IMG/VR virus record: IMGVR_UViG_2695420871_000007
Reading direction: 5' to 3' (one strand)
DNA from: a virus
Taxonomy: Duplodnaviria; Heunggongvirae; Uroviricota; Caudoviricetes
DNA length: 9,154 nucleotides
Made by a program: the position numbers and the translations under genes
Shown here: piece after piece, positions 779-9,154 of the stretch
How positions within the stretch are numbered: position 1 is the first letter of the stretch
Layout: every line of letters begins with the position of its first letter
Notes under the pieces: generated by a model
Told to the model about the DNA's origin: nothing
Seen by the model: the letters and a program-made list of their open reading frames with translations, nothing else
The model's database searches: none

Positions 779-1807
779 TTATTTCACCTGTACCACCACA
801 AACTCATCCGGATCCGGCAGCACCATCAGCGGCGCGGACTGCGTCATGGTGAATTCACAGGACGGATCGCCCACGGTCAGCCAGTGTTTCGGGTAACGGG
901 AAGAAGCCACCACTCCTTCAGACAACGCCTGTGCATCCTTAATGGCTCCATAGCAACGAATCCCCTCTGCCGCCGTATTCCCCAGCACCAGCGTGCCCTC
1001 CGGCAGATAACGTTTTTCGGTACCGTCCTCTGCCACATAAGACGTTTTCGCTACCACAATAGCCAGATCGCCGTAATACCCCTTGAAGGATACCACTGCG
1101 CCCAGATCTTTCACTGCCGTTTCGAGTTGTGAATTTGAACCGCGACGGGTATCCAGTTTTTCGCGGAAAAGCTTAAAGCCATTCAGCAGACGCCAGACGG
1201 TACCGTCCATAATGGCAATATTCACAAGACCACTGGCCTGATCACAGAAAAGGTCGATATCATATGTCGGGTCGAACGTGTCACGATCCTGTTTTGACCA
1301 CTCCTTACCGCTACCCTGTATGATGTTATTCTTCGTCGATCGGCCAAAATCGACTTCAATTTTCTCGAACTGGTCTCCTTCCATCGTATATTTGCCATAC
1401 AGCACGGCATTCACCGCCTGCATTTCTTCCACCTGCACAATAGCGTGCTCTTCCTGTTTGAGGTTATCAGTGATGATACGCAGACGACGGTAGGCCGGGT
1501 CGTTCAGCTGAGCCGGATCTTCACCGGGAAGGCGTTCAACCGCCTGCTGGTAATTAAATTCGTGTTTCGGCTTGACGTAGCCCGGACGTAACACGCGGGT
1601 TTCACCCCCACGATGACGCAGCACTTTTCCTTCAACGACCGGGGAGACATAGGCCGCCACCGGCGTTTTTCCGGTAATTTTGTCCAGCATCACCTCTTCG
1701 GTGTGGAAATTCACCGTACGGCGGAAAAACAGTTCCAGAAACAGCGCACGAAATTTAACTTTTTGTTCGGTATAACCGAGTAACTGGCGGGTCGTAAACA
1801 ATCCCAT
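779..1807 (-). CDS. E: Major capsid protein, lambda gpE-like
   Basis: 342-aa ORF, near-collinear with lambda E (341 aa) as I recall it. Long shared blocks include PGYVKPKHE, DPAYRR, AIVQVEEMQAV, KGKYTM, EKLDTRRGSNS(Q/E)LETAVKDLG, DPDEFV. An AAGGA Shine-Dalgarno motif sits about 9 nt upstream of the ATG. Confidence 0.93.
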   Translation of the reverse strand: MGLFTTRQLLGYTEQKVKFRALFLELFFRRTVNFHTEEVMLDKITGKTPVAAYVSPVVEGKVLRHRGGETRVLRPGYVKPKHEFNYQQAVERLPGEDPAQLNDPAYRRLRIITDNLKQEEHAIVQVEEMQAVNAVLYGKYTMEGDQFEKIEVDFGRSTKNNIIQGSGKEWSKQDRDTFDPTYDIDLFCDQASGLVNIAIMDGTVWRLLNGFKLFREKLDTRRGSNSQLETAVKDLGAVVSFKGYYGDLAIVVAKTSYVAEDGTEKRYLPEGTLVLGNTAAEGIRCYGAIKDAQALSEGVVASSRYPKHWLTVGDPSCEFTMTQSAPLMVLPDPDEFVVVQVK

Positions 1808-5539: not shown

Positions 5540-7451
5540 TCACTCCTCCGGACAGCTTCGCTGCCAGTTCTTTAAGGGGTGGCCGGGTCGTCTCTTCTTC
5601 CCGGGATTTTGCCAGTACAGCCAGATCAAGCTGCCAGCGTTGCACGGACACACGTAATGCCGCGTAGGCATACACCAGGCAGTCCAGCGCTTCGTTACGC
5701 CGCTTTTTGTTATCCCACAGCAGACGCATCTTTCCTTTTTCCCACTTCTCCACAAGCTCTTCCGCCACCAGTTGCTGCGCCTCTGTCTGCGAAAAAATCT
5801 CCGGCTCATCAGGAAAACGGATGGCATACGACGTGGCTTCATCCGCAGGCGTGGGATCGGCTTTCATACGGGCATAGAGAATTTCTTTTGCGGTGTCCGT
5901 CCCCACTTCGCACAGATACACGCCCCGCTGATTGCGGGTTTTTGGCATGGTGATCACCGGCTTGCCATAAACAGATGCACCTTTTACCGGCAGCACCCGG
6001 AAAACACCGTGTTTTTTTGACCTCTGATAAACGATTTCGCCATCGATCCCCCCGGTGTCCCAGCAGACACGGGAAATGGTCATCTCGGTGCCATCCGCAT
6101 GGCGGTATTTTTTGTTGATCGCCGCATCCACACGTAACAGCGTCTCTTCCTCATCAGGACGCCCCATAATGATGATTTTATCCACCAGAAAAGCTTCCTC
6201 TCCCGGTGCCCATCCCCAGACATACATCTCAAAACGGTTTCGCTGCGAGTCAATGCCCGCCGTCAGATAAACCACCCGGGCAGGTACCGCCGCCGTATAA
6301 TGCACGACCTTATCCATCAGCACCTGGTGATCAAGTTTTTCGCCCACGGCCTCTTCCCAGGTCTCGCCCAGCGTGGTGTTCACAAAGGTTTTCACGCCGT
6401 TGGGATCTTTCAGTGCATCCAGCCAGTCATAGACTATCTGTACCCAGGTGGTAAACGGACTGTACGCCGTCCAGATATGGAACGTGATGGAGCGCGGCGG
6501 CGGAATTTCATTACCCGCAGCGCTGAAAAACGTCAGACCGTCACGGGTCCACATGCCCGTGTTTTCACAGATCCACCGCCCGTTGCTCTGGTCCAGTTCA
6601 GACTGATGGATCACGCAGCCATGATGTTCACAGAGGTAGAAAACACTTTCGGGACTGTCCTTCTCCCATTTAAGCCCAAAAGGCGTGGACTCATCGCCAA
6701 ATTTCAGATACTGCTCCTCCCCACAGTGTGGGCAGGGCACATAAAAACGCATAAAATGCGCCGACTCGTTGGCCGCTTTTTCGATCTGGCAGGTGCCTTT
6801 GATTTTAGGCGTCGAGCCGCGAATGGATTTGGGCCATACAGAGCCCTCAATACGTTTATCCCCAAGCAGGGTTGGCGACCCCTCTTTTTCGACATCCGGT
6901 TCGAACGAGGAAAGTTCGTCATAGCAGACCACGTCCACGGATTTTTCACGGTAGTTTTTAGCGGCAGCCCCGCCCAGGCACCAGAAGCCCACGCCCGATG
7001 AAAAACGTTTCAGCGTGAGGGTATTATCACGATGTTTACGACCCAGCCATGGGGAAAGGTCTTTCAGGCATGGCACATCCCGAATCGTCGCCTCCACGTG
7101 AGACTTCATAAAATCTTCAGCGGCAGAATCCGTGGGCTGAAAAAGCAGACTGTTTCGTGATTTATGCTCAATAAAATACCCGACCACCCCCAGCAACATC
7201 TTTGTATAGCCAACACGGGCAGATTTAATCAGGTTAACCGTGCGAACCTGGTCGTTACCCATACAGTTCATAATGGCGACCTGGAACGGCAGCGTTTTCC
7301 ATTCTCCCTCACCATATGAAGATTCTTTAGGCAGATAATAATTTTGATCAGCCCATTCAACTGGCGTCACCGGCAATGCCCTTATCAGGGGCTGTAATGC
7401 TGTTGTGACAGCACTCATCATATTATTCAGTTGTTGCTCTGATATATTCAT
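5523..7451 (-). CDS. A: Terminase large subunit, lambda gpA-like; start moved to the internal ATG at 7451
   Basis: The track ORF is 661 aa from 7508, but lambda-type A begins MNIS..., which here is Met20 (ATG at 7451..7449), giving 642 aa versus about 641 in lambda. Extensive shared blocks: VEWAD.NYYLPKES, TLPFQ.AIMN.MG, SARVGY(T/S)KMLLGV, KKHRDNTLT.KRF, GFWCLGG.AAKNYREKSVDV, EGSPT(L/F)LGDKRIEGSVWPKSIRGSTPK, CPHCGEEQYLKFGD, FHIWTAYSPFTTWVQIV, KTFVNTTLGETWE, YLTAGIDSQ, CWDTGGID, KGASVYGKPV, WD.KKRRNEALDC.VYA.AALR.S.QRWQLDL. Confidence 0.93.
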   Translation of the reverse strand: MNISEQQLNNMMSAVTTALQPLIRALPVTPVEWADQNYYLPKESSYGEGEWKTLPFQVAIMNCMGNDQVRTVNLIKSARVGYTKMLLGVVGYFIEHKSRNSLLFQPTDSAAEDFMKSHVEATIRDVPCLKDLSPWLGRKHRDNTLTLKRFSSGVGFWCLGGAAAKNYREKSVDVVCYDELSSFEPDVEKEGSPTLLGDKRIEGSVWPKSIRGSTPKIKGTCQIEKAANESAHFMRFYVPCPHCGEEQYLKFGDESTPFGLKWEKDSPESVFYLCEHHGCVIHQSELDQSNGRWICENTGMWTRDGLTFFSAAGNEIPPPRSITFHIWTAYSPFTTWVQIVYDWLDALKDPNGVKTFVNTTLGETWEEAVGEKLDHQVLMDKVVHYTAAVPARVVYLTAGIDSQRNRFEMYVWGWAPGEEAFLVDKIIIMGRPDEEETLLRVDAAINKKYRHADGTEMTISRVCWDTGGIDGEIVYQRSKKHGVFRVLPVKGASVYGKPVITMPKTRNQRGVYLCEVGTDTAKEILYARMKADPTPADEATSYAIRFPDEPEIFSQTEAQQLVAEELVEKWEKGKMRLLWDNKKRRNEALDCLVYAYAALRVSVQRWQLDLAVLAKSREEETTRPPLKELAAKLSGGVNGYSR

Positions 7452-7932
7452 CGAGTAAATCCGGTAATTTATCCCCTGCCCGCGCACACTGATTTGCCCC
7501 CTTCGCAATAAGGGTTTTCAGATGGTCAAGATGGCGTGGTGTTAAATCAGGAAACTGTCGTTGCATGGATAAAGGGATGGAATCAAGCGTACTGGATAAC
7601 GCCATTGCCAGCTTGCTGAGGGCAAAAATACAGAACCCGGTGTCAATAAGTTTTCCTTTTGACACCTCATTTTTTAACTGCTGTGTAACAGCCTGTTCTG
7701 CTGTCAGTTCCCATCTGGCAATAAGCAATTTTTCCTCATAGTCGTCTTCGCTATCGCCATCAGGCACATCGTTTTTACTTCTTCTCAGATACGATATGTA
7801 AAAATCGCGCCAGGCATCCAGATCCAGTTGCCCTCGCTTATTCGATATCGGGGCACCCGGCAATTTCTGCAATCTGCGAAGCTGGCGATCGGTCAGACTT
7901 AAATGCCTGGCAACTTCAGTCTGCGTAGCCAC
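7423..7932 (-). CDS. Nu1: Terminase small subunit, lambda gpNu1-like (N-terminal HTH DNA-binding domain, C-terminal gpA-interaction region)
   Basis: 169-aa ORF with an apparent GTG start at 7932..7930; a GAGG motif lies 6 nt upstream. The C-terminal half matches recalled lambda Nu1 (T(G/A)FC.F.LS..A....S.LD..PLS.QR.FP.L..RH.D.LK and ...LL.EYI). The N-terminal part diverges but keeps the pattern of a DNA-binding helix-turn-helix. The 3' end overlaps the A start by about 29 nt, as in lambda. Confidence 0.85.
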   Translation of the reverse strand: MATQTEVARHLSLTDRQLRRLQKLPGAPISNKRGQLDLDAWRDFYISYLRRSKNDVPDGDSEDDYEEKLLIARWELTAEQAVTQQLKNEVSKGKLIDTGFCIFALSKLAMALSSTLDSIPLSMQRQFPDLTPRHLDHLKTLIAKGANQCARAGDKLPDLLDEYIRATTE

Positions 7933-7972
7933 TCCTCACCTCGCAAAAACTCTCACCTCACAATCACAACAA

Positions 7973-8048
7973 AACCGGTCATGTCCGGTTCACAGAAGAC
8001 CTGTTTTTATATTTTTCATATAGTTAACTTGAAGATAAACCGGACATG
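7973..8048. repeat. cosB-position repeat set: three copies of an 11-bp motif AACCGGWCATG (candidate terminase small-subunit binding elements) flanking an AT-rich tract
   Basis: AACCGGTCATG at 7973..7983 (top strand), AACCGGACATG at 7980..7990 (bottom strand, overlapping the first to form a near-palindrome) and AACCGGACATG at 8038..8048 (top strand). The interval 7991..8037 is AT-rich. They sit between cosN and the Nu1 start, where lambda has R3-I1-R2-R1. Confidence 0.5.
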
Positions 8049-8130
8049 GATCCAGGAAAATTTTCATAAATAGCGAAAACCCGCGAGGTCGCCGCCCCGT
8101 AACCGGTCGGATCGCCGGAAAGGACTCACG
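8045..8130. other. Cohesive-end site (cos): cosN 12-nt overhang at 8086..8097 with lambda-like flanks
   Basis: The reverse complement of 8045..8097 reads GGGCGGCGACCTCGCGGGTTTTCGCTATTTATGAAAATTTTCC, which as I recall is the first 43 nt of the lambda genome (cosN overhang GGGCGGCGACCT plus the proximal flank). The far side (8098..8130, reverse complement ...GGCGATCCGACCGGTTACG) also resembles my recollection of the lambda right terminus (...GATCCGACAGGTTACG). Confidence 0.85.
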
Positions 8131-8132
8131 AA

Positions 8133-8149
8133 ATGATAATTATTATCAT
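8133..8149. promoter_or_regulatory. 17-bp perfect palindrome ATGATAAT-t-ATTATCAT, Fur-box-like (GATAAT/ATTATC hexamers); candidate operator
   Basis: Perfect 8-bp arms around a central T. TGATAATtATTATC matches the 3' 14 nt of the classic 19-bp Fur consensus GATAATGATAATCATTATC at 13 of 14 positions by my hand count. It is followed by TATATAAG, a possible -10 region. Function is not established. Confidence 0.3.
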
Positions 8150-8303
8150 CTATATAAGGTTTATCACAACATGTGTGTACGCCATCAAACCACGAGAAAT
8201 AATCAATTATGACGCAGGTATCGTATTAATTGATCTGCATCAAATTAACGTAAAAGCAACTTCAGATAATACAAATCAGCAACACTGAATATGGGGAAAC
8301 ATT

Positions 8304-8489
8304 ATGTCATCAAAGAACAGAACCCGCAGAACAACAACCCGCAACATCCGATTTCCAAACCAGATGATTGAACAAATTAACATCGCTCTTGATCTGAAAG
8401 GTTCAGGAAACTTTTCAGCGTGGGTTATTGAAGCCTGCAGAAGAAGGCTGTCAACAGAGAGTTCGGGTATGAATTACATAATTAAGTAA
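8304..8489 (+). CDS. Small basic ribbon-helix-helix-like protein (61 aa), possibly of the YlcI/YnfO type found next to nohD/nohA in E. coli cryptic prophages; likely DNA-binding accessory (moron) gene
   Basis: The ORF has a GGGGAA Shine-Dalgarno-like motif 5 nt upstream of the ATG. After a basic N-terminal tail (KNRTRRTTTR) comes IRFPNQMIEQINIALDL....GNFSAWVIEACRRRL, the strand-helix-helix pattern of Arc/CopG-type repressors. Its position next to cos and Nu1, on the opposite strand to the late genes, matches where ylcI and ynfO lie in DLP12 and Qin. Family assignment is from memory only. Confidence 0.6.
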   Translation: MSSKNRTRRTTTRNIRFPNQMIEQINIALDLKGSGNFSAWVIEACRRRLSTESSGMNYIIK

Positions 8490-8621
8490 CATGGTGTTCA
8501 CAGAACACGCAGTTACCGGACACATCAGTTTTCCATTCGCTCCCTGGCAGTACAGGCTTCCCCTCTGACGGGATAGCCTGAAAAAATAACACAGAAAATT
8601 ATTTGTTATAATTAATATAAC

Positions 8622-8762
8622 TTACTCAAAAAAAAGCGACGAGAAAATCAGCATCAACGAACAATAAGCGCCAATACGTGATAACAAATGGCAGCCATAT
8701 TTATCTGCAGTATAAGCAATGGACAGGATAACCACACCAGAAACCGTCAGCATAAAATCCAT
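8622..8762 (-). CDS. Unlisted small ORF (46 codons) encoding a predicted two-helix hydrophobic membrane peptide
   Basis: Hand translation of the minus strand: ATG(8762..8760) GAT TTT ATG ... GAG TAA(8624..8622) gives MDFMLTVSGVVILSIAYTADKYGCHLLSRIGAYCSLMLIFSSLFFE. A GGGGAAG Shine-Dalgarno-like motif lies 5 nt upstream. Two hydrophobic stretches are separated by a short polar DKYGCH..SR turn. It is below the size cutoff of the supplied ORF track and is in the late-operon orientation. No homolog recognised. Confidence 0.35.
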   Translation of the reverse strand: MDFMLTVSGVVILSIAYTADKYGCHLLSRIGAYCSLMLIFSSLFFE

Positions 8763-9018
8763 TTGAACTTCCCCGGACAAAATCGACTCATCTAAAGATT
8801 TACAGCTCTTTTTATTATTAATATGTTAAAAGCAAAATAAACAGATGTTCAATAACACGAATACAAAAACGTGCTGAAATTCAATGAATCCATTTCTGTG
8901 TCATCAATTAATAGTGATAAACATCCGGCTTCTTCCACCATCGCACCGGACAGGCGACTATGAGGGGACAACGCCGCGCTCCGTTAACGCGGTAAACCCC
9001 GGTGTGTATCGTTTTTGA

Positions 9019-9154
9019 TTATCCCCGCACACTCGCGCAGAGGAGTCTCCCTGTCGGGCTGCGGTCTCTGTTAATGAGGGAATACAGCGACGATACGGCG
9101 CATTGAGGTGTACTGGCAATAGCGGACACTACCATTTGTTCTTTTTTTAAGCAG
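9019..9154 (-). CDS. Possible 3' end of a minus-strand gene entering from beyond the window (unidentified)
   Basis: One minus-strand frame is open from the window edge to a TAA at 9021..9019 (...KKEQMVVSAIASTPQCAVSSLYSLINRDRSPTGRLLCASVRG*). This region is more GC-rich than the adjacent AT-rich tract. No recognisable homology; it could equally be non-coding. Confidence 0.2.
   Translation of the reverse strand, partial: CLKKEQMVVSAIASTPQCAVSSLYSLINRDRSPTGRLLCASVRG

What the first reader, a model, noticed from the sequence alone, without database searches (positions are those of the whole stretch)
8304..8489. Small ribbon-helix-helix-like protein encoded antisense to the late operon next to cos
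This 61-aa basic protein has a predicted strand-helix-helix fold and its own Shine-Dalgarno motif, and is oriented against the late transcript. It is therefore probably expressed from its own promoter in the lysogen, like lambda bor or the E. coli ylcI/ynfO genes at the equivalent position. Its target and role are unknown; it could regulate a host or prophage promoter or act as an antitoxin-like repressor.
Basis: partly seen in the sequence, partly recalled or inferred. Interest (0 to 1): 0.5.

Follow-up and report, generated by a model that had tools for sequence, protein, structure and literature searches.

The report
YlcI/YnfO-family small DNA-binding protein gene
This is a real, strongly conserved small prophage gene of the already catalogued but still uncharacterised YlcI/YnfO (DUF3950) family. 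It most likely encodes a ribbon-helix-helix DNA-binding regulator driven by a promoter that depends on the host oxygen sensor FNR, so the find itself is ordinary although the function remains open.

Summary
The 61-codon ORF at 8304..8489(+) exists as described. It is 100% identical to RefSeq WP_001329960.1, annotated "YlcI/YnfO family protein". It passes the curated cut-offs of Pfam DUF3950 and NCBIfam YlcI_YnfO_N. It is under strong purifying selection (dN/dS 0.04 against the lambda allele). It lies about 200 bp from cos, divergent from the Nu1-like terminase gene, exactly as ylcI/nohD and ynfO/nohA do in E. coli K-12. Phage lambda carries an unannotated copy.

I also found a perfect FNR box (8230..8243). 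It sits in class II geometry to a GATAAT -10 (8265..8270) and points at the ORF. FNR binds the K-12 homologs in published ChIP and EMSA data. Perfect FNR boxes recur at the same distance upstream of diverged chromosomal homologs in Salmonella and Citrobacter.

More distant homologs sit in P4/PICI-like satellites.

Verdict: an already known family member of unknown function, with low-to-moderate interest.

The parts
8304..8489 (+). YlcI/YnfO-family (DUF3950, PHROG 949) gene; 61 aa, pI 11.3; identical to WP_001329960.1
   Evidence: dN/dS 0.04 against lambda
8331..8453 (+). Conserved core (residues 10-50). It comprises a basic arm, an extended I15-R16-F17 segment, helix A (19-32), an N35-F36-S37 turn and helix B (37-54). 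This is the putative ribbon-helix-helix DNA-binding domain.
8454..8486 (+). Variable, mosaic C-terminal tail (STESSGMNYIIK). It differs from the tails of lambda, YlcI and YnfO. DNA similarity to lambda-type phages stops near 8438.
8293..8297 (+). Shine-Dalgarno-like GGGGA, 7 nt before the ATG
8265..8270 (+). Predicted -10 hexamer GATAAT (GACAAT in lambda). The predicted transcription start is about 8277/8278, giving a 5' UTR of about 26 nt.
   Evidence: inferred from the sequence; not mapped experimentally
8230..8243 (.). Perfect FNR consensus TTGATCTGCATCAA. Its centre lies 67.5 bp before the ATG and about -41.5 from the predicted start, which is class II geometry.
   Evidence: Identical in lambda, DLP12 and Qin. 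FNR ChIP-chip and EMSA and ChIP-seq at the K-12 homologs. Perfect boxes at -69.5 in Salmonella and Citrobacter homologs.
8134..8148 (.). It is the homolog of the K-12 'nohA -233' and 'nohB' Fur sites.
   Evidence: 0.02 expected by chance; arms invariant while the centre base varies T/G/A among alleles
8142..8169 (-). Best sigma-70-like promoter of the intergenic region, TTGTGA-16-GATAAT. It overlaps the Fur box and reads towards cos and Nu1. The spacing is not conserved in lambda because of a 7-bp indel.
   Evidence: the published nohA start falls inside the Fur box (derived)
8121..8127 (.). cosQ-like heptamer AGGACTC (lambda AGGACCC)
   Evidence: sequence and alignment with the lambda right end; the identity of cosQ is from my own knowledge of lambda
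8086..8097 (.). cosN cohesive-end sequence AGGTCGCCGCCC (reverse complement of lambda GGGCGGCGACCT)
7423..7932 (-). Nu1-like small terminase gene, divergent from the ORF; first gene of the morphogenesis block
8494..8508 (.). Short hairpin GTGTTC-aca-GAACAC, 5 nt after the stop codon. The scan scores it as terminator-like on the minus strand only.

Best explanation
The ORF is a genuine member of the YlcI/YnfO (DUF3950) family. This is the small gene that lambda-type phages and prophages carry about 200 bp from cos, pointing away from the terminase genes and against the late transcript.

Shown:
- Family membership, synteny and purifying selection.
- A conserved 40-residue core followed by a freely exchanged tail.

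Likely:
- The core is a ribbon-helix-helix domain that dimerises through the I-R-F strand and binds DNA.
- The gene has its own host-dependent promoter. A perfect FNR box is centred about 41.5 bp upstream of a predicted start, with a GATAAT -10 and no -35, which is a class II FNR-activated design. Such a promoter would be active in anaerobic lysogens independently of phage late transcription.

Inferred:
- The protein acts as a sequence-specific transcriptional regulator, probably a repressor that also autoregulates.
- It probably acts on nearby control DNA. In satellite homologs this would be the divergent Icd-like/primase promoter region. Here it would be the cos-proximal intergenic region, which also holds a Fur-controlled promoter reading towards Nu1.

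Its actual operator and regulon are unknown.
For: Membership and reality of the gene:
- Pfam DUF3950 scores 67.5 bits against a cut-off of 25. NCBIfam YlcI_YnfO_N scores 35.2 against 30. PHROG 949 scores E=9e-32.
- The protein is identical to the RefSeq-annotated protein.
- The layout matches ynfO/nohA in MG1655.
- dN/dS is 0.04.
- The gene is present in 4174 of 5426 complete E. coli genomes.

Fold:
- The AF2 model has helices 19-32 and 37-54 after an extended segment, with mean pLDDT 71.
- Non-significant Foldseek lists are dominated by NikR, TacA, Arc and ParD.
- hhalign places IRFP on Arc LRWP in the canonical register, P=0.0018, against 0.17-0.61 for non-RHH controls.
- There is a weak HicB-like PHROG hit.
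- One member is fused to a small-terminase HTH domain.

Promoter:
- No consensus sigma-70 promoter lies on the plus strand, as expected for an activator-dependent promoter.
- The FNR box is perfect.
- At the K-12 homologs, FNR ChIP-chip, EMSA and ChIP-seq are all positive, and the site has the top motif score (16.68) among the entries seen in the motif table.
- Perfect or near-perfect FNR boxes lie at -69.5 in otherwise unalignable upstream DNA of the Salmonella and Citrobacter homologs. Each is followed 21-22 nt later by a -10-like hexamer.
- ylcI is transcribed in K-12 RNA-seq, as part of a ybcW-ylcI convergent overlap.

Regulator role:
- Satellite homologs sit divergent from an Icd-like gene annotated as a repressor family.
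- Two or three locus-specific palindromic repeats and an extended -10 lie between the two genes.
Against: - No Pfam RHH family is hit, even at E up to 10.
- The classical G-x-S/T/N turn is not strictly conserved in the family.
- Myers et al. list both K-12 peaks among FNR sites with no FNR-dependent expression change in anaerobic glucose medium.
- Grainger et al. saw low activity and marginal FNR effects, but only for a fusion pointing at nohA.
- No transcription start is mapped for this gene.
- No operator for the protein is identified in the window.
- In the HNH-type phage PPyecE_EH1910 the same gene has a different 41-bp upstream region without an FNR or Fur box. The promoter design is therefore not universal.
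Confidence: 0.55

Rival explanations
1. The protein is a lysogenic-conversion regulator of host genes rather than of phage DNA. It would be made when the lysogen is anaerobic (FNR), and its RHH domain would reprogram a host promoter set, giving a fitness benefit in the gut.
For: The region has low GC typical of a moron: 41% against 55% for the head genes. The gene is oriented against the late operon beside bor-type accessory genes. Solitary chromosomal homologs with their own FNR boxes exist in Salmonella and Citrobacter, and further chromosomal homologs without an FNR box in Pantoea and Rouxiella, all without any phage neighbours. The gene is very widespread and multi-copy in E. coli.
Against: No host target is known. 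No phenotype is reported in the literature searched. In satellites the gene sits inside the element's own control region.
Confidence: 0.2
2. The protein is a packaging or cos accessory factor. It would bind next to cosQ/cosN, or to the small terminase, and modulate cos cleavage, packaging termination or exclusion of related phages.
For: The gene lies constantly within about 200 bp of cos in lambda-type phages. One family member is fused to a Terminase_2 N-terminal DNA-binding domain. Homologs occur in satellites that depend on helper packaging.
Against: Homologs in satellites and in chromosomes are not next to any terminase or recognisable cos. In PPyecE_EH1910 the gene sits beside a different (HNH-type) packaging module. 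To my knowledge the minimal lambda cos needs no such factor.
Confidence: 0.1
3. The FNR and Fur sites serve only the leftward transcript towards cos and Nu1 (nohA/nohB), as the K-12 literature labelled them. On this view the small gene is expressed in some other way, or barely at all.
For: The best sigma-70-like promoter of the region is on the minus strand over the Fur box. A nohA start inside the Fur box is implied by the -85.5 position given for the FNR site. nohA and nohD are about 10-fold higher in a fur knockout. No FNR-dependent expression change was seen in K-12.
Against: The FNR box recurs at the same distance from the ATG in homologs that have no Nu1 or cos nearby, while the Fur box does not. 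A position of -85.5 is not a standard FNR activation position, whereas -41.5 is (own knowledge). The fur-knockout data come from a lambda lysogen in which the whole prophage is induced, so cross-mapping to nohA/nohD is possible.
Confidence: 0.12
4. The protein is the antitoxin of a toxin-antitoxin pair, since RHH antitoxins such as ParD, CopG-like and VapB types repress their own operon.
Against: No co-oriented partner gene exists here or in lambda, DLP12, Qin, the satellites or the chromosomal loci. The only nearby small ORF (8622..8762) is convergent and matches no family. PADLOC gives no hit.
Confidence: 0.03
5. The ORF is a chance reading frame in conserved non-coding DNA near cos.
For: It is short, and the flanking non-coding DNA is itself highly conserved.
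Against: dN/dS is 0.04, with half of the synonymous sites changed. Protein-level homologs at 36-60% identity occur in other genera. Divergence is biased to the third codon position.
Confidence: 0.01

Closest known systems
E. coli K-12 YnfO (Qin prophage, b4533) and YlcI (DLP12, b4589); NCBIfam NF041551, Pfam PF13132 DUF3950, PHROG 949
   Same: Same family above curated cut-offs. About 90% identity over residues 1-52. Same position and orientation between the Nu1 homolog (nohA/nohD) with its cos remnant and the lysis/bor region. Same perfect Fur and FNR boxes upstream.
   Different: The C-terminal tail differs: 61 aa ending STESSGMNYIIK, against the 77-aa YnfO. A 7-bp insertion lies beside the Fur box. 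All are functionally uncharacterised.
Unannotated ORF of phage lambda, complement(48109..48303) of NC_001416/J02459
   Same: 81% identity. Same distance from cos, same Fur box (TGATAATGATTATCA) and same FNR box.
   Different: 64 aa with a different tail. The -10 is GACAAT instead of GATAAT. No feature is annotated there in the reference record.
P22 Mnt and Arc (immI region), the classic small RHH repressors of a temperate phage
   Different: There is no significant sequence relationship. No ant-type target gene lies adjacent in the window. The operator is unknown. Membership of the Arc/Mnt families is not claimed.
CopG/ParD/VapB-type RHH antitoxins and plasmid copy-number repressors
   Different: No toxin or replication partner gene, no Pfam RHH hit and no operon structure.
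YlcI/YnfO homologs in P4/PICI-like satellites of Serratia, Xenorhabdus, Pectobacterium, Brenneria, Proteus, Klebsiella and Pasteurellaceae
   Same: Same family (NCBIfam 47-56 bits, PHROG 949). A single small gene oriented against all its neighbours.
   Different: Only 36-45% identity. Flanked by integrase, AlpA, an Icd-like protein and a D5/P4-type primase instead of cos and terminase. Own extended -10 and locus-specific palindromic repeats. No FNR or Fur box.

Membership tests
YlcI/YnfO family (NCBIfam NF041551; Pfam DUF3950 PF13132; PHROG 949) | Score above the curated HMM cut-offs | tested here: met
   Pfam 67.5 bits against 25; NCBIfam 35.2 against 30; PHROG 949 E=9e-32 over 54 of 61 positions
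YlcI/YnfO family (NCBIfam NF041551; Pfam DUF3950 PF13132; PHROG 949) | Conserved IRF ... NFSAWV.(E/D)AC core in a protein of about 50-80 aa | tested here: met
   I15 R16 F17, N35 F36 S37 A38 W39 V40... C45 present; invariant columns in alignment A1
YlcI/YnfO family (NCBIfam NF041551; Pfam DUF3950 PF13132; PHROG 949) | Syntenic position in lambdoid prophages: between the Nu1 homolog with cos and the lysis/bor region, on the opposite strand | tested here: met
   Window and NZ_CP051001; MG1655 Qin nohA-ynfO; lambda
Ribbon-helix-helix (MetJ/Arc) superfamily | Strand-helix-helix topology with alternating hydrophobic residues in the N-terminal strand | tested here: inconclusive
   Helices 19-32 and 37-54 are predicted. 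Residues 14-18 are extended but are not scored as a strand in the monomer. I15 and F17 are invariant.
Ribbon-helix-helix (MetJ/Arc) superfamily | Structural or profile similarity to solved RHH proteins | tested here: inconclusive
Ribbon-helix-helix (MetJ/Arc) superfamily | Obligate homodimer forming a two-stranded antiparallel ribbon that reads the major groove | not testable with these tools
Needs AF-multimer or an experiment.
Class II FNR-activated promoter | FNR consensus TTGAT-N4-ATCAA centred near -41.5, a -10 hexamer and no -35 | tested here: met
   Perfect box at 8230..8243. GATAAT lies 21 nt downstream. No plus-strand -35/-10 pair is found. The same geometry holds in L043, L044 and L072. 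The start site is predicted, not mapped.
Class II FNR-activated promoter | FNR occupancy of the site | not testable with these tools
   Published for the identical K-12 sites: ChIP-chip and EMSA and ChIP-seq in all datasets
Class II FNR-activated promoter | FNR-dependent transcription of the downstream gene | not testable with these tools
   The published K-12 data are negative in one condition. The reporter tested pointed at nohA only.
Fur regulon site | Fur box and Fur binding | tested here: met
   Perfect 7-1-7 box at 8134..8148. The homologous MG1655 box is exactly the gel-shifted 'nohA -233' site. Which gene it controls is not settled.
Type II toxin-antitoxin (RHH antitoxin) | Adjacent co-transcribed toxin gene | tested here: not met
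   No co-oriented neighbour in any context examined

The most novel reading that the evidence does not exclude
YlcI/YnfO proteins could be a distinct class of host-signal-gated RHH switches. In lambda-type prophages the gene would be turned on by FNR in the anoxic gut. Its product would control the neighbouring Fur-gated promoter that reads across cos into the terminase genes, or a set of host promoters. That would couple oxygen and iron status to prophage packaging readiness or to lysogen fitness. In P4/PICI-like satellites, diverged copies would act as the repressor of the Icd-like/primase operon through locus-specific palindromic operators. This would give a function to an unannotated gene of phage lambda itself.
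Probability: 0.15. Interest if true: 0.6.

Novelty: already known. Interest (0 to 1): 0.3.

Why it matters
The gene is present in about three quarters of complete E. coli genomes, often in several copies. It is also present in phage lambda, where the reference record does not annotate it. Nobody knows what it does.

Its upstream region combines two perfect-consensus sites for global host regulators (FNR and Fur). Both are experimentally occupied at the K-12 homologs, and both were assigned in the literature mainly to the terminase homologs nohA/nohB.

Re-reading the FNR site as a class II promoter for the small RHH gene gives a concrete, cheap experiment. The re-reading is supported by the recurrence of the box upstream of Salmonella and Citrobacter homologs. 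If confirmed, it would add an oxygen-responsive regulator to the short list of lambda genes expressed in lysogens. It would also explain two 'orphan' high-affinity FNR sites of E. coli K-12. As a scan finding, however, it is an already annotated family member.

Tried and rejected
**Structure and fold**
- Sequence and profile searches of the PDB gave only chance hits.
- Foldseek against the PDB and BFVD gave nothing significant. The afdb50 library was unavailable.
- Pfam at E up to 10 on 19 family members gave no RHH family.

**RNA and defence systems**
- An RNA element in the 5' region was rejected: Rfam gave nothing and the folding z-score was +0.6.
- PADLOC defence models gave no hit.

**Fur box**
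- The Fur box as a family-wide feature was rejected. It is absent from all diverged homologs.
- The fur-knockout RNA-seq as proof of Fur control was set aside. The strain is a lambda lysogen whose whole prophage is up about 10-fold, so reads may cross-map to nohA/nohD.

**Other ORFs and gene context**
- The 51-aa ORF 8133..8288 (PHROG 9395) as a real gene was rejected. It starts inside the Fur box and is cut to 18 codons in lambda by the 7-bp indel.
- Long minus-strand ORFs covering the satellite homologs were considered as the true genes. I judged them over-extended Icd-like genes. Their frame shares third positions with the RHH frame, where antisense stops are rare. The RHH frame also shows position 2 more conserved than position 1.
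- Lambda-like terminase or lysis genes next to the diverged homologs: none.

**Literature and motif checks**
- Literature on ylcI, ynfO and DUF3950 holds only incidental mentions. The lambda ribosome-profiling paper and the Vassinova and Kozyrev paper are not held.
- A post hoc ATCAA/TTGAT enrichment turned out to be explained largely by the FNR box.

Full report
**1. The observation**

The window is a lambda-type prophage segment. On the minus strand lie a major capsid gene (779..1807), a decoration gene, an S49 protease/scaffold gene, a portal gene, a W-like gene, the large terminase gene and a Nu1-like small terminase gene (7423..7932). The cohesive-end sequence AGGTCGCCGCCC is at 8086..8097 and a cosQ-like AGGACTC at 8121..8127.

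The region 7900..9154 is 98-99% identical to prophages of E. coli O157:H16 and O55:H7. In NZ_CP051001 RefSeq annotates, in order:
- terminase small subunit (minus strand),
- 'YlcI/YnfO family protein' WP_001329960.1 (plus strand),
- a 46-aa hypothetical protein (minus strand),
- then the lysis genes (minus strand).

The ORF 8304..8489(+) encodes 61 aa identical to that RefSeq protein. Its pI is 11.25 and a GGGGA motif lies 7 nt before the ATG.

**2. It is a real gene of a catalogued family**

- Pfam DUF3950 scores E=9e-19, 67.5 bits against a cut-off of 25.
- NCBIfam YlcI_YnfO_N scores 35.2 bits against 30.
- PHROG 949 ('unknown function') scores E=9e-32.
- Against the lambda allele, codons 1-48 differ at 16 synonymous and 4 non-synonymous positions. 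This gives dS 0.82, dN 0.037 and dN/dS 0.04.
- The gene, or its first 135 nt, is found in 4174 of 5426 complete E. coli genomes, with up to 12 copies. It is annotated 'YlcI/YnfO family protein' in the records listed that carry a feature at the match.
- In MG1655 the layout is nohA (minus strand), intergenic region, ynfO (plus strand).
- The family is small. Only 106 clusters at 50% identity appear in a library of 1.8 billion representatives.
- Literature searches found only incidental mentions, and ynfO is listed among uncharacterised 'y-ome' genes.

**3. Lambda itself**

tblastn finds an 81%-identical ORF at the right end of NC_001416/J02459, with 'none' annotated under it. The feature table of 45400..48502 stops at lambdap79 (47738..47944). 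From the sequence, the ORF is complement(48109..48303) and encodes 64 aa.

**4. Fold**

An alignment of 19 diverse members shows invariant or near-invariant I15, R16, F17, I25, F37, W40, V41, A44 and C45.

AlphaFold2 with that alignment gives mean pLDDT 71. It predicts helices 19-32 and 37-54, preceded by a non-helical 14-18 segment. No strand is scored, as expected for an obligate-dimer fold modelled as a monomer.

- Foldseek finds nothing significant. Its top list is NikR, TacA, Arc, ParD and TCP, and BFVD gives a similar picture.
Cro and Xis controls give 0.61 and 0.17.
- No PDB sequence relative exists, and no Pfam RHH family is hit.

I read this as good but not conclusive support for an RHH domain. 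A dimer model was not possible.

**5. Mosaic structure**

- Similarity to lambda-type phages covers window 8055..8438, and then stops inside the ORF.
- Most E. coli matches share only the first 135 nt.
- From 8304 onward the window resembles phage PPyecE_EH1910. There the same gene lies beside an HNH/terminase module of another type, with an unrelated 41-bp upstream region.
- The conserved unit is therefore the 50-residue core, and the tail is exchangeable.
- Upstream non-coding DNA (8134..8303) is 90-92% identical to lambda. Codons 1-48 are 86% identical, with half of the synonymous sites changed. This is consistent either with constraint on the control region or with a recombination joint at the ATG.

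**6.

TGATAATTATTATCA (8134..8148) matches the 7-1-7 Fur consensus perfectly, with 0.02 expected by chance.

In MG1655 the homologous box is centred exactly 233 bp upstream of the nohA start and 156 bp upstream of the ynfO ATG. This is the 'nohA -233' site (22.3 bits) that Chen et al. 2007 gel-shifted with Fur. It had also been recovered by in vivo Fur titration. The DLP12 copy ('nohB') scores 25.3 bits.

Among alleles the two arms are invariant while the central base is T, G or A.

The Fur box is absent from all diverged homologs. It therefore travels with the lambda-type cos/Nu1 region, not with the gene.

The best sigma-70-like promoter of the intergenic region lies on the minus strand over the box. 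Grainger et al. place the FNR site at -85.5 from a nohA start, which puts that start inside the Fur box.

A fur-knockout RNA-seq shows nohA and nohD about 10-fold up. However, the strain is a lambda lysogen whose entire prophage is up by the same factor, so cross-mapping cannot be excluded.

**7. A perfect FNR box points at the ORF**

TTGATCTGCATCAA (8230..8243) is the full FNR consensus. Its centre is 67.5 bp before the ATG. GATAAT follows 21 nt after the box (8265..8270). A start at about 8278 would put the box at -41.5, the class II position (own knowledge of FNR promoters). It would leave a 26-nt leader carrying the GGGGA motif. The lack of any -35 on the plus strand fits an activator-dependent promoter.

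The identical K-12 sites have published support:
- They were FNR ChIP-chip peaks and shifted with FNR in EMSA. They were labelled 'nohB' and 'nohA/ydfO', because ylcI and ynfO were not named as flanking genes in that table. The only reporter tested pointed at nohA and was weak.
- Myers et al. 2013 found ChIP-seq peaks 'ylcI/nohB' and 'nohA/ynfO' in all datasets. These sites had the highest motif score (16.68) among the entries seen in their motif table. They named ylcI as the estimated target of one peak.
- The same study, however, listed both among peaks without FNR-dependent expression change in anaerobic glucose medium.

New here: perfect or near-perfect FNR boxes occur at almost the same distance from the ATG in diverged, non-prophage chromosomal homologs.

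| Locus | Organism | FNR box | Centre relative to ATG |
|---|---|---|---|
| L043 | Salmonella enterica subsp. diarizonae | TTGATTCAGATCAA | -69.5 |
| L044 | S. enterica subsp. arizonae | one mismatch | aligned with the L043 box |
| L072 | Citrobacter amalonaticus | TTGATATAAATCAA | -69.5 |

The rest of the upstream DNA in these loci is unalignable. Each box is followed 21-22 nt later by a hexamer with A at position 2 and T at position 6. A perfect 10-position match has a chance of about 3 in 10,000 per 300 bp. The FNR box therefore travels with the gene.

ylcI is transcribed in K-12 RNA-seq compilations, as part of a convergent ybcW-ylcI overlap.

**8. Distant relatives**

A scan of one genome per species returned two kinds of hit.

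First, many 90%-identical hits in unrelated phyla are lambda DNA at 99-100% identity, that is, control-DNA contamination.

Second, true homologs at 36-60% identity occur in Enterobacterales and Pasteurellaceae. About half of these lie in P4/PICI-like integrative elements:
- They carry a P4-type integrase, AlpA, sometimes an AntA-type antirepressor, an Icd-like protein (NF033153; PHROG 'transcriptional repressor') and a D5/P4-type primase. Some lie next to tRNA genes.
- All of these genes are on one strand, and the homolog alone is on the other, divergent from the Icd-like gene.
- The roughly 190-bp gap holds two or three copies of a 12-14-bp palindrome that differs between loci. Examples are GGTGCACATACACC, TGTGCGCACA, TGTTTAAACA and TGGTACGTACCA. 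The gap also holds a conserved TGTATAGT extended -10 for the homolog.
- This is the layout of a small autoregulated repressor at a divergent switch. Which protein binds the repeats is not established.
- One representative fuses the domain to the N-terminal DNA-binding part of a small terminase.

Other homologs are solitary chromosomal genes.

No defence-system model matches.

**9. What it most likely does**

- Shown: family membership, coding constraint, synteny, and perfect FNR and Fur boxes whose K-12 counterparts bind their proteins.
- Likely: an RHH fold, and transcription from its own FNR-dependent promoter, hence expression in anaerobic lysogens independent of late transcription.
- Inferred: a dimeric DNA-binding regulator, probably autoregulating, that acts on nearby control DNA or on host promoters.

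Rivals are a packaging accessory role, a purely Nu1-directed use of the FNR and Fur sites, and an antitoxin role. All are less supported, and the antitoxin reading fails its defining test because there is no partner gene.

**10. Verdict**

The finding is correct, and its interpretation is essentially right. It concerns an already annotated, widespread family of unknown function. The added value lies in four points:
- the identification of the palindrome as a known Fur site,
- the FNR class II promoter reading and its conservation in other genera,
- the unannotated lambda copy,
- the satellite relatives.

Interest 0.3.

Noticed in passing
phage lambda NC_001416 / J02459, complement(48109..48303); locus L003: The reference lambda records carry no feature over a conserved 64-aa YlcI/YnfO homolog about 200 bp from the right cohesive end. 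Several newer lambda-like records annotate it.
   Followed up: yes
window 8133..8288 (+): A 51-aa ORF starts at the ATG inside the Fur box and matches PHROG 9395 over its full length. The lambda-type alleles lack 7 bp that the window has beside the Fur box, which cuts the frame to about 18 codons. It is probably an annotation artefact over conserved regulatory DNA.
   Followed up: partly
window 8151..8160 versus lambda, DLP12 and Qin alleles: The window has 7 bp beside the Fur box that the other alleles lack. This changes the spacing of the minus-strand promoter-like elements (TTGTGA-16-GATAAT here, 9 bp in lambda). The patch just after it is the most variable part of the intergenic region.
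   Followed up: partly
window 8622..8762 (-): A small hydrophobic ORF is convergent with the RHH gene and is annotated as a 46-aa hypothetical protein in RefSeq. It has no PHROG or PADLOC match. Whether it is a membrane peptide or toxin-like product is unknown.
   Followed up: no
loci L006-L038, e.g. L014 = CP136411.1 'plasmid unnamed1' of Arcanobacterium hippocoleae (3566 bp), L009, L011, L022: Assemblies of unrelated bacteria (Actinobacteria, Firmicutes, Bacteroidetes, MAGs) contain contigs of about 3.5 kb or contig ends that are 99-100% identical to the right end of lambda. This is most likely sequencing control DNA. It inflates the apparent taxonomic range of this family, and one such contig is deposited as a plasmid.
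   Followed up: yes
loci L046, L048, L049, L054, L057, L063, L069, L073, L076, L077, L079, L080, L082 (about 190 bp upstream of the homolog): Satellite homologs are preceded by 2-3 copies of a locus-specific 12-14-bp palindrome, a conserved stem-loop before the divergent Icd-like gene, and a TGTATAGT extended -10. The repeat sequence seems to change together with residues 11-14 of the homolog, but relatedness of the loci confounds this.
   Followed up: partly
P0193 / locus L084 4714..5103: A 129-aa protein fuses the DUF3950 core to a Terminase_2-like N-terminal DNA-binding region. It sits in a satellite with integrase and a Toprim/AAA_25 primase.
   Followed up: partly
loci L048, L049, L060, L061, L063, L069, L075 etc., minus strand over the homolog: ORFs of 150-430 codons run antisense across the whole RHH gene and into the Icd-like gene. 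Their frame shares third codon positions with the RHH frame. They look like over-extended reading frames, but the 429-codon one in L069 is not explained.
   Followed up: partly
loci L043, L044, L072, between the FNR box and the ATG: An inverted repeat GTAAC-N3-GTTAC (GTTAC-N6-GTAAC in Citrobacter) overlaps the predicted -10/start region of the chromosomal homologs. It is a candidate autoregulatory operator. A GTAAC...GTTAC pair also brackets the hairpin after the stop codon in the window (8486..8516).
   Followed up: no
literature: PMC10219339 supplementary tables (E. coli NCM3722 versus its fur knockout): The strain carries a lambda prophage (rexA and rexB are listed). Nearly all of its lytic genes are about 10-fold higher in the fur knockout, together with dinB. 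This looks like prophage induction in the mutant rather than direct Fur control, and it complicates reading nohA/nohD as Fur targets.
   Followed up: partly
window 8202..8234: An inverted repeat ATCAATTATGACG / CGTATTAATTGAT (13 nt, 85% complementary, 7 nt apart) lies immediately upstream of and overlapping the FNR box. It is conserved in all lambda-type alleles, and its role is unknown.
   Followed up: no
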